This document shows, piece by piece, positions 12,001 through 15,000 of a stretch of 27,038 bases of DNA (position 1 is the first letter of the stretch; every line of letters starts with the position of its first letter). Source of the DNA: Candidatus Hydrogenedentota bacterium (lineage in GTDB: Bacteria; Hydrogenedentota; Hydrogenedentia; Hydrogenedentales; SLHB01); the NCBI GenBank assembly GCA_034408725.1, contig JAWXCN010000191.1, positions 1 through 27,038 of the forward strand. The letters are read 5' to 3'. Position numbers: made by a program.

Positions 12001-15000
12001 GCCAACTGGCGATGCCCATGGGCGATGCCATCGCCACCGTCCGCAAGCAAGCCGCCAGCACGGGATGGGTGGAAAAGCCGCAACAAGGGGCGGCGCCCGT
12101 GGCTTCGGTCACGACACATACCTTCACGAAGGATTCGCGCCAGCTCACCGTTACTCTGGCGATGGTGGACCCTACTTCCACCAGTGTGAACCTGATGACG
12201 GGTCCGCAATAAGACATTTCTCCCCGCCGTTCTATTTGTATGTGGTGCATTGCCTTTTTCAAAAATTCAATATATAGTAGCCAGATAGGATTACACTACC
12301 ATATATTGAATTCTATTGATATTATTCCGCAAATTCCGCACAACCAACAAGTTATATCTTCAAATTACTGTGAATAAAAGATTTACGACTTGTTCTCTAT
12401 TGACCTATCTGGTACAATTTCGCTGCTAGCCGGAGCAACCGGTTAGAGAAGGATTCGGTTCAGAATGTTGAGTTGGCGGCGCGACAAAAAAGATGAGGCC
12501 GGTGGTGCGACTGCGCCGCCAGCGGAATCCCACCCGCCAACTGTGACGGGAAAAGCCGCGCCGGCGCCTCCTCCCGCTTCGACCGCGACGGCGCCGCGTC
12601 TGGGAGAGCTGCTGGTCCAGGAAGGCGTCATCACGGCGCAGCAGCTTCACGAAGGGTTGACGAAGCAGGCAGAGACCGGCAGTTTCATCGGACACACTCT
12701 GGTTGAACTGGGTTTTCTGAACCAGTCGACGCTCGTTTCGTTTCTCGTGAAGCAATGCAAGATTCCGCACATCAGTCTGCTGGATTACAACATAGGGGAA
12801 GATCTTTTTAAGCTGGTCTCCCGCGAGCTGTGCTTGAAGCATCGCCTGCTGCCGATTGACAAGCTTGGCAGAATTCTCACGATTGCAATGGTTGATCCGT
12901 TGGACGCCGATGCGCTCGAGAAAGTGCGCGAATCCTGCCCCGAACTAAAGATCAAACCGATTCTATGCACGTGGGCGCATTACGAACAGGTGTCGCGCAG
13001 AATATTTGCCGACACGTCCGCGCCTTCCGCGGAAGTTTCCATGGGCACGTTTGGGTTGTCGTCGAAGAAAACATCCATCGCGCCAGCGGACAAGACACAG
13101 GCGGATGCAGCGGTTGCGCAATTGGTGAAAGAGGCGACTGCGTCAAAGCCCATGCAAGAAACGGCAGGGGCGCCGGCAAAAGCCGACACACCGCCGCCGG
13201 CCGTGCGCGAGAGCGCGGCGGCAGCGCGCATGGAGTTGCCGGACGCCATATTTGATCGCTTCGGCGATCACATGCGCCTGGCAATAACGGAATCACTCAG
13301 TCCGTTAATCGCGGACCAACAGAAACTGATCGCGTTGCAGCTTGAGACGACGAAAGGAAAACCTGCCGATCTGGCGCGGGACATCGCGGCAAACATGCGC
13401 GCGGCCCTGCAAGAGTCTCTGGCGACGGTATTGGAAACCCATTCGCGCCTGGCTCCGCAGTCCGCTCCGCATCAACAGATCGACACCGGACTTCTCGCGA
13501 AAGAGCTTGGGGAAAGCGTGCGCGCGGCGATGCTCGATTCCGTATTGCCGGCACTTCAGCTTGGCGACGGTGGCACACCAAAAGGTCAATCACCCGTAGC
13601 GGGCATAGATGCGAAAACGCTTGCAAGGGAATTGGGCGAGAGCGTTCGCACCGCGGTAGCAGAGTCGATAGCGCCGTTAGCGAAGCCGTTGAATGGCGGG
13701 GAATCGCGCGCAGCCAAGTCCGCGTTTGACATGCCGGACCTTGCGAAGGAATTGACGGCGGGCGTGCGGGACGCGGTAATGGAAGCCATTGTTCCACTGG
13801 TCCAGGCACAGAAAGCGACGGTGCAAGCGGGGGCGCGCGCGCCGGAAGAAATCGCAAAGCATTTTGCGCAGCACATCAATCGCAGCATGGCGCAACTGTC
13901 CAAAGAATTGCGCGAGAGCATCGAATCGCGCGCGCCACAGACGCCGGTGGATAGCTTCTCGGCAGCCATAGCGTCGACAATTGAATCCGCGAATGCGAAG
14001 CAGAACACGCGCATGGCGGAATTGACCAATAGCACCAAGGACGCGTTGCTGGCGGTGCGCGAAATGCTGGAGGCGATGCGCGCGCGCGAAGCAGAACCTC
14101 TCGCGGTACCCGCGTCAAATGTTTCGCCGTTCCCTGGGTTGCGCGCGGCTGAACCGGTGCAAGCCATTGCGGTCCCGCATTTCGATCCGATGGACGAGAT
14201 CGGTCTCGGAGCGGAAGCGGATGATCGCGTTCGGGAGGCGCTGCTTTCGGGGCGGTTGCAGCGATCTTTCTCATTCGATGCTTTTCTATCGGGCGCGGCC
14301 AACACGTTTACACTGTCGGTTGCGCGCGCGGTCACGGAATCGTACTCGCGGGAGTTCACCCCGTTTTACATCTACGGGGACGTTGGCGTTGGAAAGACGC
14401 ATCTGTTGCAGGCCATTGGGAACGATCTGCTTGCGCGCAACCCCGACCTGCGCGTGGCGTATATGACGGGGCTTCGCTTCGTTAGCGCGTGTGAACGCGC
14501 CGCGCGCGATCAGGAGTTGGAACGGTTCCGCGAAACTTTTGCGCACTGGGACGCGTTGCTGTTTGACGATGCGCAAAGCGTGAGCGAGCACAAGCAAGCG
14601 CAGGATGAATTGCGCACGGTGCTCGGAGTATTGACGCTCGAGGGCCGGCTGGTAGTCGTTAGCGCGGACCGCGCGCCCGACCATTTGCCGGACACTTCGC
14701 ACCAGTTGGTTTCGCGGTTGGCGTCGGGAATCGTTTCGCGGCTCCATGCGCCGGACATGCCGACACGGCTTGCGATACTGCAACGGCACACCCGATTGTT
14801 GAAAGCGAAAATAGCGGACGACGTGTTGTCGTTGATCGCGGCCCGCGTGCCCACCGACGTTCGCAAGATGACCGGGGCATTGCGCAAGGCGCTTGCGTTT
14901 GCGCAGGTTTCTGGAACGGACGTAACGCACGCGCTTGCGGAAGAAATTCTGAGTCATCTCGCCACAACCGAAGCGGCGTAACATGGGGGAAATTCGAGCG

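What a model noticed while it worked through the whole genome (the two positions that open the first line are those of the whole stretch)
12465..14981. Phylum-wide MshEN (c-di-GMP receptor) - DnaA-like AAA+ protein encoded directly upstream of pilB
An 838-aa protein joins an N-terminal MshEN domain, with an exact match to the c-di-GMP-binding motif, to a long Ala/Glu-rich linker and a DnaA-type AAA+ module that lacks the DNA-binding domain IV. It is separate from the canonical DnaA. It is conserved through the phylum and always sits directly before the type IV pilus ATPase gene pilB. This points to a c-di-GMP-responsive ATPase of the pilus machinery that is specific to this phylum.
Evidence so far: Pfam: MshEN 5.3e-15, Bac_DnaA 4.1e-41; neighbours pilB, pilT-like, pilS, pilR. 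Motif at aa 45-68. Canonical DnaA candidate on C270. 121 of 121 phylum genomes match at 1e-10, many with both ends in one frame. pilB follows in 11 of 11 loci of other genomes. Walker A in 14 of 14. Strict motif in 7 (family f1), altered at G10 and/or Q24 in 5 distant ones. Atlas: two clusters (56 and 72 members) with MshEN + Bac_DnaA, commonest in Hydrogenedentota. G000 has 13 MshEN proteins, 7 GGDEF and 10 PilZ.
(Added by a program. Inside this text positions count along the whole contig: contig position 1 is position 1 of the stretch shown here. "Call 12" and the like, gene names such as g00115 and contig names such as C1 are that model's own, and its searches are not shown. The text may have been shortened before it was handed on; [...] marks where a part breaks off. 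The agent that wrote the report below was given it as the finding of a first reader that could run no searches.)

Follow-up and report, generated by a model that had tools for sequence, protein, structure and literature searches.

The report
c-di-GMP sensor fused to DnaA-like ATPase
An uncultured bacterial phylum places, directly in front of its pilus-extension motor gene, a protein that joins a cyclic-di-GMP sensor domain to a DnaA-type ATPase with no DNA-binding part, while the motor's own sensor motif has decayed, which suggests a new way of coupling this messenger to pilus assembly.

Summary
ORF 12465-14981 (+) encodes 838 aa. It has an MshEN domain with an intact c-di-GMP motif I and all four signature glycines. 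The middle holds six ~21-residue helical repeats rather than a plain linker. The C-terminus is a DnaA domain-III AAA+ module that stops at the III/IV boundary.

The ATPase residues are kept in 42-44 of 44 relatives. A separate canonical DnaA exists. The AAA+ modules of 44 phylum genomes form one clade apart from canonical DnaA.

In 95 of 99 genomes with a listed C-end, the pilB orthologue follows directly. The upstream genes are not conserved.

New here: the adjacent PilB has lost the motif-II glycine (G40) in 45 of 45 genomes and G11 in 21 of 45. These are the same replacements as in a proven non-binding PilF domain.

Best reading: a c-di-GMP receptor acting in trans on the pilus extension motor, analogous to FimX-PilZ of Xanthomonas, with an ATP-driven DnaA-type switch as output.

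Caveats: there is no biochemistry. One genus keeps pilB without this gene. The strict motif occurs in only 22 of 120 relatives. Short and giant relatives of unknown taxonomy exist. No publication on this architecture was found.

The parts
12250..12307 (+). two overlapping sigma-70-like promoter matches in the 252-nt gap upstream of the gene
   Evidence: These are consensus matches only: 7 were found in the region against 3.7 expected, so the evidence is weak. No sigma-54 site above chance was found.
12465..14981 (+). gene for the MshEN - helical repeats - DnaA-type AAA+ protein (838 aa; called MDA here)
   Evidence: Orthologues with both domains in one frame occur in at least 85 of 135 phylum genomes.
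12585..13019 (+). MshEN domain (aa 41-185): a four-helix MshEN_N plus an alpha/beta MshEN_C
   Evidence: AlphaFold2 pLDDT is 87-97 per 10-residue block over aa 41-180. The domain aligns without gaps to V. cholerae MshE 5HTL residues 8-126. Foldseek gives TMt 0.68 to 5HTL.
12597..12755 (+). 53-residue c-di-GMP motif: motif I (aa 45-68), a 5-residue spacer, and motif II (aa 74-97)
   Evidence: NF053729 scores 55.9 bits against a cut-off of 38. The strict pattern matches at 45-68. The equivalents of G11, G18, G40 and G47 are all Gly. The R38 equivalent is F74.
13242..13928 (+). six helical repeats with a ~41-residue period (starts at aa 260, 301, 342, 384, 424, 461); profile consensus LAEEIRESVRGALQEALAPLL
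   Evidence: Each repeat lies in a predicted helix with block-mean pLDDT about 45-78, separated by disordered spacers. Neither Pfam nor PDB gives a match.
14232..14978 (+). DnaA domain-III type AAA+ module (aa 590-838) that ends at the domain III/IV boundary
   Evidence: Bac_DnaA scores 4.1e-41. B. subtilis DnaA domain III (8bv3) scores 147 bits. Foldseek gives TMt 0.91 with rmsd 1.8-2.0 A. pLDDT is 93-98 per block over aa 601-830.
14376..14402 (+). Walker A (aa 638-646)
   Evidence: The Lys and Thr are kept in 44 of 44 relatives.
14715..14717 (+). codon of R751, the equivalent of the E. coli DnaA arginine finger R285
   Evidence: kept in 44 of 44. The role of R285 is taken from PMC5716108 passages.
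15000..16721 (+). pilB (type IVa pilus extension ATPase), 18 nt downstream; its own MshEN motif is degenerate
   Evidence: TIGR02538 scores 675.2 bits, just below its cut-off of 675.65, and T2SSE scores 1.8e-138. In G000 the G18, G40 and G47 equivalents are E, A and K. G40 is Gly in 0 of 45 orthologues.
16758..17879 (+). pilT-family retraction ATPase
   Evidence: TIGR01420 scores 470.2 bits against a cut-off of 319.1.
17876..19492 (+). pilS-type sensor kinase
   Evidence: 6TM_PilS, PAS, HisKA and HATPase_c domains.
19499..20887 (+). pilR-type sigma-54 activator
   Evidence: Response_reg, Sigma54_activat and HTH_8 domains.

Best explanation
The gene encodes a cytoplasmic c-di-GMP receptor. It is probably co-transcribed with the type IVa pilus extension motor PilB and acts on it.

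Proposed mechanism:
1. c-di-GMP binds the N-terminal four-helix MshEN_N bundle. Motif I is canonical. In motif II an aromatic residue replaces the guanine-stacking arginine.
2. Binding changes how the protein engages its target.
3. The C-terminal DnaA-type AAA+ module acts as the output. It has all the residues needed to bind and hydrolyse ATP and an arginine finger for head-to-tail self-assembly. It has no DNA-binding domain. It would work as an ATP-dependent oligomerisation switch.
4. The variable array of amphipathic helical repeats serves as a spacer or as a multivalent binding region.

The phylum's PilB has lost key glycine and arginine positions of its own c-di-GMP motif. This protein would therefore supply the messenger input in trans, as FimX-PilZ does for the c-di-GMP-blind PilB of Xanthomonas.

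Shown: the architecture, residue conservation, synteny and the decay of the PilB motif.
Inferred: c-di-GMP binding, ATPase activity, the target (PilB or the pilus platform), and the sign of the effect.
For: Receptor domain.
- NF053729 scores above its cut-off and motif I matches the strict pattern.
- The domain aligns without gaps to the c-di-GMP-bound MshE structure. The equivalents of R9, L10, G11, L25, L29, Q32, G40, L54, L58, Q61 and D108 are all kept.
- Across 40 orthologues, G11 is kept in 39, G40 in 37, L25 in 39, L58 in 36 and Q61 in 35. The R38 position is F or Y in 39.
- The proven binder PilF GSPII-B has Leu at that position (alignment; binding from PMC12002112, section 6).

AAA+ module.
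- The Walker A Lys/Thr, Walker B DD, arginine finger and sensor II are kept in 44 of 44. Sensor I is kept in 42 of 44.
- It has the DnaA domain-III fold, with TMt 0.91.

Link to pilB.
- The pilB orthologue lies directly downstream in 95 of 99 genomes and in 48 of 49 fetched loci.
- The median gap is 36 nt over 43 loci.
- pilT-pilS-pilR follow in most of the 20 long loci.
- None of the upstream genes is shared by more than 2 of 21 loci, so this gene is the 5' edge of the conserved block.

PilB decay.
- G40 is Gly in 0 of 45 orthologues (Ala 25, Pro 14, Gln 5, Ser 1). G11 is Gly in 24 of 45. R38 is Arg in 0 of 45.
- G11L and G40I variants of MshE bind poorly if at all (PMC5013675 passages).
- The non-binding PilF GSPII-A domain carries S39, A41 and H33, the same kinds of replacement (PMC12002112, section 6).

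Precedent. X. citri PilB lacks the c-di-GMP residues and is regulated through its N-terminal domain by PilZ-FimX (PMC8389850 passages).

The genome makes c-di-GMP: it has 7 GGDEF matches.

Against a replication role.
- The canonical DnaA lies elsewhere. In the one-contig genome G034, dnaA is at 4.87 Mb and this gene at 0.40 Mb.
- Domains I and IV are absent.
- The ssDNA-binding H-motif position is not hydrophobic in most relatives, and R227 is Cys in 34 of 44.
Against: - There are no binding, ATPase, interaction or expression data.
- The strict motif is present in only 22 of 120 database relatives, and the relaxed motif of Wang et al. in 84 of 120. G18 is Gly in only 23 of 40.
- Small deviations can abolish binding in this domain family. 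Restoring the consensus did not rescue PilF GSPII-A. Motif reading is therefore not decisive for this protein or for PilB.
- In G000 and 24 other genomes, the PilB change at G40 is only to Ala, which has not been tested.
- G037 (96% complete) keeps pilB-pilT-pilS and has no such gene upstream. No family-type N domain was found in G037 or G038. The protein is therefore dispensable in at least one genus.
- Gene order alone does not prove a physical or functional link.
- The first arginine of box VII (R281 equivalent) is Gln in this genus, and this genus sits on a long branch of 0.61.
Confidence: 0.55

Rival explanations
1. It is a replication or cell-cycle regulator. The DnaA-type AAA+ module docks onto canonical DnaA, as Hda does. 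It either inserts its arginine finger to trigger ATP hydrolysis or caps DnaA oligomers. c-di-GMP, and so surface attachment, would then modulate replication initiation. The position next to pilB would reflect co-regulation only.
For: - The module is closest to DnaA itself: TIGR00362 gives 230.9 bits and B. subtilis DnaA domain III gives 147 bits.
- The arginine finger and sensor II are invariant.
- Hda structures are also matched by fold.
Against: - It scores below the Hda cut-off, 88.5 against 194.8.
- No clamp-binding-like motif occurs in 44 relatives (the motif pattern is recalled, not taken from a call).
- Its conserved neighbour is pilB, not dnaA or dnaN. It lies far from dnaA in both one-contig genomes.
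- The module is a clade apart from canonical DnaA, with SH-aLRT 99 and 100.
Confidence: 0.12
2. It is a scaffold or polar organiser, or a c-di-GMP buffer. The repeats and the self-assembling AAA+ module would build a platform that localises pilus proteins. ATP turnover would not serve as a signal, and the MshEN domain would only tether or sequester c-di-GMP.
For: - The repeat array is long, variable and weakly structured: 1-6 copies in 35 of 44 relatives, and ORFs range from about 540 to 1200 aa.
- The N and C domains are not confidently packed against each other in either model. pTM is 0.43 for the full protein and 0.61 for a 454-aa short form.
Against: - The catalytic residues are conserved as strictly as in working ATPases.
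- The shortest orthologues (548-601 aa) lack the repeats and keep both end domains and the position before pilB. The repeats are therefore not the core of the function.
Confidence: 0.1
3. It regulates another member of the block rather than PilB: the retraction ATPase PilT, or PilS-PilR signalling and thereby pilin transcription.
For: pilT, pilS and pilR follow pilB in most of the 20 long loci. PilR is itself an AAA+ protein.
Against: - The gene is always adjacent to pilB.
- In three long loci (L042, L049, L054) no pilT, pilS or pilR match follows pilB, while the gene pair is kept.
- The decay of PilB's own motif gives a specific reason for a PilB-directed receptor.
Confidence: 0.1

Closest known systems
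MshE / PilB-type MshEN (T2SSE_N) c-di-GMP receptor domain (V. cholerae MshE, PDB 5HTL; Wang et al. 2016, PMC5013675)
   Same: The N-terminal domain is the same. It aligns without gaps over 119 residues, has motif I, the 5-residue spacer and motif II, and has Gly at positions 11, 18, 40 and 47.
   Different: - It is not followed by a T2SSE ATPase.
- An aromatic residue replaces the motif-II arginine in 39 of 40 relatives.
- Family-specific residues are present: the LVKQCKIPH stretch and four Cys at positions 98, 123, 158 and 168. These are absent from the PilB and HDOD paralogues of the same genome.
- The main text of Wang et al. lists REC, HD-GYP, CheA, CheX, cyclase, Ser/Thr kinase and glycosyltransferase fusions, with no DnaA or AAA+ fusion. 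Its supplementary tables could not be opened.
DnaA domain III (B. subtilis 8bv3/8btg, T. maritima 2z4r)
   Same: The fold is the same, with TMt 0.91. The Walker A, Walker B, sensor I, box VII arginine finger and sensor II residues are kept.
   Different: - Domains I and IV are absent.
- The score is below the DnaA equivalog cut-off.
- It forms a separate clade.
- The H-motif and R227 positions are not kept.
Hda (DnaA-related regulatory inactivator)
   Same: Both are DnaA-type AAA+ modules without a DNA-binding domain that are targeted by an N-terminal element.
   Different: - It scores 88.5 bits against a cut-off of 194.8.
- PDB Hda chains match at only about 25 bits.
- It has no clamp-binding-like motif.
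- Its N-terminal element is a c-di-GMP receptor domain.
FimX-PilZ-PilB regulatory complex of Xanthomonas citri (PMC8389850) and the PilB cofactors reviewed in PMC11656802
   Same: The logic is the same. A PilB whose MshEN-like N domain lacks the c-di-GMP residues receives the c-di-GMP input from a separate receptor protein.
   Different: - There is no homology: no GGDEF, EAL or PilZ domain.
- The receptor is an MshEN domain and the output module is an AAA+ ATPase.
- Physical binding to PilB is not shown here.
- The 2024 review does not contain the words DnaA or AAA+.
DnaC / DnaI / IstB (initiator-clade AAA+ loaders and helpers)
   Same: Both belong to the initiator-clade AAA+. In both, an N-terminal domain engages a hexameric motor or partner.
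   Different: The similarity is weak: IstB at 39.9 bits, and DnaI and DnaC far below their cut-offs. Any loader-like action on PilB is speculation.

Membership tests
MshEN c-di-GMP receptor domain (PF05157 / NF053729) | profile score above the curated cut-offs | tested here: met
   PF05157 scores 55.6 bits against 23.1. NF053729 scores 55.9 bits against 38.
MshEN c-di-GMP receptor domain (PF05157 / NF053729) | motif I: RLGxx(L/V/I)(L/V/I)xxG(L/V/I/F)(L/V/I)xxxxLxxxLxxQ | tested here: met
   Exact match at aa 45-68. The pattern is taken from PMC5013675 and PMC12943098.
MshEN c-di-GMP receptor domain (PF05157 / NF053729) | motif II after a 5-residue spacer | tested here: inconclusive
   The spacer is 5 residues. 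The equivalents of G40, G47, L54, L58 and Q61 are kept. The first residue is F instead of R, and the second is I. The relaxed pattern of Wang et al. is not met at position 1.
MshEN c-di-GMP receptor domain (PF05157 / NF053729) | Gly at MshE positions 11, 18, 40 and 47 | tested here: met
   G47, G54, G76 and G83 of the protein.
MshEN c-di-GMP receptor domain (PF05157 / NF053729) | measured binding of c-di-GMP | not testable with these tools
   This needs ITC, DRaCALA or DSF on purified protein.
DnaA, chromosomal replication initiator (TIGR00362) | equivalog score above the cut-off | tested here: not met
   230.9 bits against a cut-off of 343.9.
DnaA, chromosomal replication initiator (TIGR00362) | domain I (DnaA_N) and DNA-binding domain IV (Bac_DnaA_C) | tested here: not met
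   Neither is hit in this protein. Both are hit in the C270 DnaA of the same genome.
DnaA, chromosomal replication initiator (TIGR00362) | AAA+ domain III with Walker A/B, sensor I, arginine finger and sensor II | tested here: met
DnaA, chromosomal replication initiator (TIGR00362) | ssDNA-binding H/B-motif residues (E. coli V211, R245) | tested here: inconclusive
   The V211 position is E in this protein and A, E, G or K in most relatives. The R245 position is Q or E, but the genome's own canonical DnaA also lacks Arg there. The residue roles are from PMC5716108 passages.
Hda (TIGR03420) | equivalog score above the cut-off | tested here: not met
   88.5 bits against a cut-off of 194.8.
Hda (TIGR03420) | N-terminal clamp-binding motif | tested here: not met
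   The pattern QL[SDAE]L[FPL] or QLxLxL occurs in 0 of 44 relatives. The pattern is recalled, not taken from a call.
PilB/GspE secretion ATPase (PF00437 T2SSE) | T2SSE ATPase domain | tested here: not met
   No PF00437 hit. Only the N-terminal 170 residues resemble PilB (TIGR02538 positions 2-170).
trans-acting c-di-GMP receptor of PilB (works like FimX-PilZ) | the partner PilB lacks its own c-di-GMP residues | tested here: met
   At sequence level only. G40 is Gly in 0 of 45, R38 is Arg in 0 of 45, and G11 is Gly in 24 of 45.
trans-acting c-di-GMP receptor of PilB (works like FimX-PilZ) | physical complex with PilB | not testable with these tools
   The one complex job gave no verdict. A pull-down or two-hybrid test is needed.
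trans-acting c-di-GMP receptor of PilB (works like FimX-PilZ) | homology to FimX (GGDEF-EAL) or PilZ | tested here: not met
   No such Pfam hit. This is an analogy, not membership.

The most novel reading that the evidence does not exclude
An initiator-clade (DnaA/DnaC-type) AAA+ ATPase has been recruited away from DNA to act on a secretion-superfamily hexameric motor. The protein would be gated by c-di-GMP through its MshEN domain. It would assemble on PilB and load, open or activate the PilB ring at the pilus base, much as DnaC handles DnaB. It would replace the c-di-GMP site that PilB lost in this phylum. This would be the first DnaA-family protein with a function outside DNA replication and transposition, and a new class of pilus motor cofactor.
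Probability: 0.15. Interest if true: 0.85.

Novelty: new variant of a known kind. Interest (0 to 1): 0.66.

Why it matters
c-di-GMP control of type IV pili is known in two forms. Either PilB/MshE binds the messenger itself, or a FimX/PilZ-type receptor acts on a blind PilB. This would be a third form: a dedicated MshEN receptor whose output is a DnaA-type ATP switch, conserved across a whole uncultured phylum.

It also widens what DnaA-family AAA+ modules are used for. The prediction is directly testable with recombinant proteins: the receptor domain binds c-di-GMP and the neighbouring PilB does not.

These genes are annotated in public records as 'DnaA', 'DnaA/Hda family protein' or 'ATP-binding protein'. 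For a genome that has a separate true DnaA, these labels are misleading.

Tried and rejected
- Complex prediction. The chains were the MshEN domain, the AAA+ module and PilB as partner. The verdict was 'no answer'. It is reported here only, and is not evidence either way.
- The search for related loci in genome contigs with four short forms. The patterns chosen were AAA+ motifs, and the 80 loci kept were canonical DnaA genes of many phyla. Three that reached further into the query were checked and are ordinary DnaA. This said nothing about fusions outside the phylum.
- Cluster look-up of 10 odd relatives gave no organism names.
- Sigma-54 promoter pattern: 26 matches against 33.9 expected, and none in the upstream gap.
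- Sequencing runs: no RNA holder is listed. Seven DNA runs of microbial-mat metagenomes hold the stretch or a part of it.
- The middle region searched against PDB sequences and Pfam gave nothing credible.
- The second AlphaFold2 model (the 454-aa short form P0210) gave pTM 0.61 and a disordered linker at 155-188. This leaves contact between the two domains undecided.
They may list this architecture.
- The first Acidobacteriota search failed on the machine and was repeated.
- Literature searches that found nothing on this architecture:
  - 'MshEN' + 'DnaA': 1 paper, seen as a listing only and apparently unrelated by title.
  - 'MshEN' + 'AAA+'.
  - 'DnaA-like' + 'pilB'.
  - 'Hydrogenedentes' + 'type IV pili'.
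  - 'Hydrogenedentota' + 'c-di-GMP': 0 papers.
- A Cys4 metal site formed by the four family-specific cysteines was considered. It could not be tested because no coordinates are returned. The cysteines are not in CxxC spacing, and C158 and C168 flank opposite ends of a strand.
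Full report
**What is there**

The window holds an open frame at 12465-14981 (+) of 838 codons. Pfam finds MshEN (aa 99-169, 5.3e-15) and Bac_DnaA (aa 598-757, 4.1e-41). It finds no DnaA_N, Bac_DnaA_C or T2SSE.

NCBIfam places the 53-residue 'c-di-GMP_motif' model NF053729 at aa 45-97 with 55.9 bits against a cut-off of 38. The DnaA equivalog scores 230.9 against 343.9, and Hda scores 88.5 against 194.8, so both fall below their cut-offs.

The genes that follow are:
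- pilB at 15000-16721. TIGR02538 scores 675.2 bits, just below its cut-off of 675.65. T2SSE scores 1.8e-138.
- A pilT-family gene.
- pilS and pilR.

The genes before it are unrelated to pili: putA, a radical-SAM/SPASM gene, yqeY and an ORF with no family.

A true DnaA lies on another contig of the same genome. It is 462 aa with DnaA_N + Bac_DnaA + Bac_DnaA_C.

**The receptor domain**

The N-terminal domain aligns without a gap to V. cholerae MshE in the c-di-GMP complex 5HTL. Residues 44-162 of the query correspond to residues 8-126 of MshE.

With that offset, the equivalents of R9, L10, G11, L25, L29, Q32, G40, L54, L58, Q61 and D108 are all retained. So are the four glycines that Wang et al. 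used to define the family (positions 11, 18, 40, 47; PMC5013675 passages).

Motif I (aa 45-68) matches the strict pattern. Motif II follows after five residues and begins with F74 where MshE has R38.

This is a family trait. In 40 orthologues taken from phylum genomes the position is F in 34, Y in 5 and L in 1. In the same set:
- G11 is kept in 39.
- G40 is kept in 37.
- L25 is kept in 39.
- L58 is kept in 36.
- Q61 is kept in 35.
- Q32 is kept in 32.
- G18 is kept in only 23.

The arginine at that position stacks on a guanine (PMC12002112, section 6). An aromatic side chain could do the same, but this is my inference. The high-affinity binder PilF GSPII-B has Leu there (alignment).

Among 120 database relatives, 22 have the strict motif and 84 have the relaxed one.

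The domain also carries family-specific invariant residues. These include the stretch LVKQCKIPH and four cysteines at positions 98, 123, 158 and 168, each conserved in 36-40 of 40. They are missing from PilB and from the MshEN-HDOD paralogue of the same genome. I could not test whether they lie together in space.

**The ATPase module**

The C-terminal 250 residues are a DnaA domain III.
- The best solved relatives are B. subtilis DnaA domain III (147 bits) and T. maritima DnaA. Hda chains score about 25 bits.
- The AlphaFold2 model has block-mean pLDDT of 93-98 for aa 601-830. It superposes on those structures with TMt 0.91 and rmsd 1.8-2.0 A.
- The protein ends where domain IV would begin.

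I added E. coli DnaA to the alignment of 44 orthologues and checked the functional positions:
- The equivalents of K178, T179, D235, D236, R285 (arginine finger) and R334 are kept in 44 of 44.
- D269 is kept in 42.
- R281 is kept in 30. In the window's genus it is Gln.
- The ssDNA-binding H-motif position (V211) is A, E, G or K in most, and R227 is Cys in 34.

The R245 position is acidic or Gln. The genome's own DnaA also lacks Arg there, so I give that no weight. The roles of V211, R245 and R285 come from PMC5716108 passages. The roles of R227, R281, D269 and R334 are recalled.

In a quick maximum-likelihood tree of 104 AAA+ modules:
- The 44 orthologues form one clade (SH-aLRT 99).
- They are separate from the phylum's canonical DnaA (SH-aLRT 100) plus E. 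coli DnaA.
- The window's genus sits on a long stem of 0.61.
- I halved the canonical DnaA rows for speed, using 15 of 30.

**The middle**

P0001 has six copies of a ~21-residue amphipathic helix, at aa 260, 301, 342, 384, 424 and 461, with a period near 41. Self-comparison gives 7 window pairs above threshold against 0 in three shuffles.

Distant families carry a related repeat. An iterated profile finds 1-6 copies in 35 of 44 orthologues, with the consensus LAEEIRESVRGALQEALAPLL. The shortest forms (548-601 aa) and a few others have none.

AlphaFold2 predicts seven helices with block-mean pLDDT about 45-78, separated by disordered spacers. Neither Pfam nor PDB sequences match this region. 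ORF lengths in the phylum range from about 540 to 1200 aa. The middle is therefore the fast-evolving and dispensable part.

**Distribution**

All 135 phylum genomes match at 1e-10, but this count includes matches to DnaA or to any MshEN domain. Stricter measures are:
- The N domain alone matches at 1e-30 or better in 125 of 135. This includes a sister paralogue fused to HDOD.
- Both the family-type N domain and the DnaA-type C end lie in one and the same open frame in at least 85 of 135. This is counted only from the 150 listed rows of each of two searches. Several of the remaining genomes are split at contig ends.
- A canonical DnaA is found in 127 of 135. The eight genomes without one are 60-91% complete.

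Source names on relatives are Hydrogenedentes, Hydrogenedentota or Hydrogenedentales, plus one 'FCB group bacterium'. The Atlas shows two clusters of 56 and 72 members with both domains, commonest in Hydrogenedentota.

Outside the phylum, the N domain query found no family-type domain in the genomes sampled:
- Omnitrophota, 301 genomes: the best match is 92 bits at 40% identity, in PilB-sized or stand-alone ORFs.
- Verrucomicrobiota: 0 of 301 genomes at 1e-26.
- Acidobacteriota: 1 of 301 genomes, and that one is an ordinary PilB.
- For comparison, the best match per genome in the own phylum ranges from 2.2e-33 to 8.7e-95, and the listed rows score 152-316 bits.

These are samples and do not show absence.

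The exhaustive search of 1.84 billion representatives returned 1306 proteins at 1e-30 or better. Among the best 150 are variants that I did not place taxonomically:
- Short MshEN + Bac_DnaA proteins of 398-556 aa.
- Giants of 921-1990 aa with MshEN and two DnaA-type modules.
- Tandem two-module proteins without MshEN.

**Gene order**

- In 48 of 49 fetched loci of other genomes (43 of 44 distinct genomes), the C end is followed directly by pilB on the same strand. The exception is a contig fragment that holds only the N part.
- Combining the listed coordinates of two phylum searches, the pilB orthologue lies within 500 nt downstream in 95 of 99 genomes. The four others are cut by contig ends.
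- The gap has a median of 36 nt, with a range of 15-335, over 43 loci.
- pilT-pilS-pilR follow in most of the 20 long loci.
- Among the upstream ORFs of 21 loci, none is shared by more than two. This gene is therefore the 5' edge of the conserved block.
- In the window, two promoter-like matches lie in the 252-nt upstream gap, and no terminator-like site lies between the gene and pilB on the + strand. This is weak evidence.

The reverse does not always hold. G037 (96% complete) has pilB-pilT-pilS at 69% identity with no such gene in the 1.5 kb upstream. Neither G037 nor its genus-mate G038 has a family-type N domain at 1e-30. G007, G016 and G045 lack both the N domain and a pilB orthologue at the thresholds used. 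They are 93, 88 and 85% complete.

**The new point: PilB's own motif has decayed**

Aligning the pilB orthologues of 45 genomes gives these counts:
- The motif-II glycine (G40) is never Gly. It is Ala in 25, Pro in 14, Gln in 5 and Ser in 1.
- R38 is never Arg. It is Ser in 37.
- G11 is Gly in only 24. It is Pro in 16, Glu in 4 and Ser in 1.
- Q32 is His in 14.

In MshE the backbone amides of G11-D12 and G40-D41 make the specific hydrogen bonds to the guanines, and the G11L and G40I variants bind poorly if at all (PMC5013675 passages). [quoted passage not shown]

The receptor protein, by contrast, keeps G11 and G40 in 39 and 37 of 40. Within G000's 13 MshEN domains, the pilB one is among the most degenerate at the glycine positions.

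There are cautions. Ala at G40 has not been tested. In GSPII-A, restoring the consensus did not restore binding. NF053729 still scores PilB at 54.2 bits.

**Interpretation**

The most economical reading has three parts.
- The phylum's type IVa pilus motor has lost direct c-di-GMP sensing.
- The gene in front of it supplies a receptor in trans.
- The receptor's output module is a DnaA-type ATP switch.

The precedent for the logic is Xanthomonas citri. [quoted passage not shown] The 2024 review of PilB cofactors lists PilZ/FimX, CpiA and phage peptides, and does not contain the words DnaA or AAA+.

A replication-linked role (Hda-like) is the main rival. Gene order, the distance from dnaA, the lack of a clamp motif and the separate clade make it less likely, but none of these excludes it.

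What the ATPase does mechanically is not known. It could self-assemble, remodel PilB or act as a timer.

**Novelty**

Five literature searches found no paper on this architecture. The main text of Wang et al. 2016 does not list it. Its supplementary tables could not be opened. The domains are known and the kind of regulation is known. The combination and the use of a DnaA-family module at a pilus motor are new. I file it as a new variant of a known kind.

Noticed in passing
window 15000-16721 and pilB orthologues of 44 other genomes (loci L009-L057, L177): The phylum's type IVa PilB has a decayed MshEN motif. The G40 equivalent is never Gly (0 of 45), R38 is never Arg, and G11 is Gly in 24 of 45. 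This resembles the non-binding PilF GSPII-A domain.
   Followed up: yes
window 12756-12758, 12831-12833, 12936-12938, 12966-12968 (codons of C98, C123, C158, C168): Four cysteines in the MshEN_C sub-domain are conserved in 36-40 of 40 orthologues. They are absent from the PilB and MshEN-HDOD paralogues of the same genome. A metal or redox role is possible, but their geometry was not testable.
   Followed up: partly
window 21113-24732: Directly after pilR lie a tRNA-Pro (21113-21191), a phage-type integrase (21134-22756, -) and a Toprim/AAA_25 primase-helicase-like gene (22912-24732, -). This looks like an integrated mobile element at the tRNA.
   Followed up: no
G000:C22:281 onward (locus L060): A third DnaA-type AAA+ module (Bac_DnaA, 51.7 bits) sits at the N terminus of a long ORF. 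The open frame is 898 aa, of which 653 aa lie in the locus, and the tail is coiled-coil-like. Its function is unknown.
   Followed up: partly
G000:C7 (locus L003:658-2073, -): This is a 471-aa MshEN-HDOD fusion. Its MshEN domain is the closest paralogue of the one studied here, at 39% identity. Similar ORFs of about 440-500 aa with 46-57% identical N domains occur in many phylum genomes.
   Followed up: partly
proteins P0199, P0203, P0206, P0208, P0214, P0218, P0228, P0230, P0234, P0240, P0245, P0251; P0160, P0180, P0211, P0213: Metagenomes hold two further kinds of relative. One kind has two DnaA-type AAA+ modules in tandem and no DNA-binding domain or MshEN (about 570-700 aa). The other kind is giants of up to 1990 aa with MshEN plus two such modules. 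Their taxonomy and context are unknown.
   Followed up: partly
loci L028 / L045 (G033:C67): The orthologue in G033 has its N domain split over two frames (tblastn pieces 1-123 and 125-203). This is a frameshift or an assembly error.
   Followed up: no
locus L177 (G037:C128): One genus (g47) keeps the pilB-pilT-pilS block with no receptor gene upstream. This is a natural comparison case.
   Followed up: partly
window 11757-12212: A 151-aa ORF with no Pfam family overlaps the end of yqeY. It is conserved (43% identity) in one genome of the same genus (L009) and not elsewhere among the loci examined.
   Followed up: no
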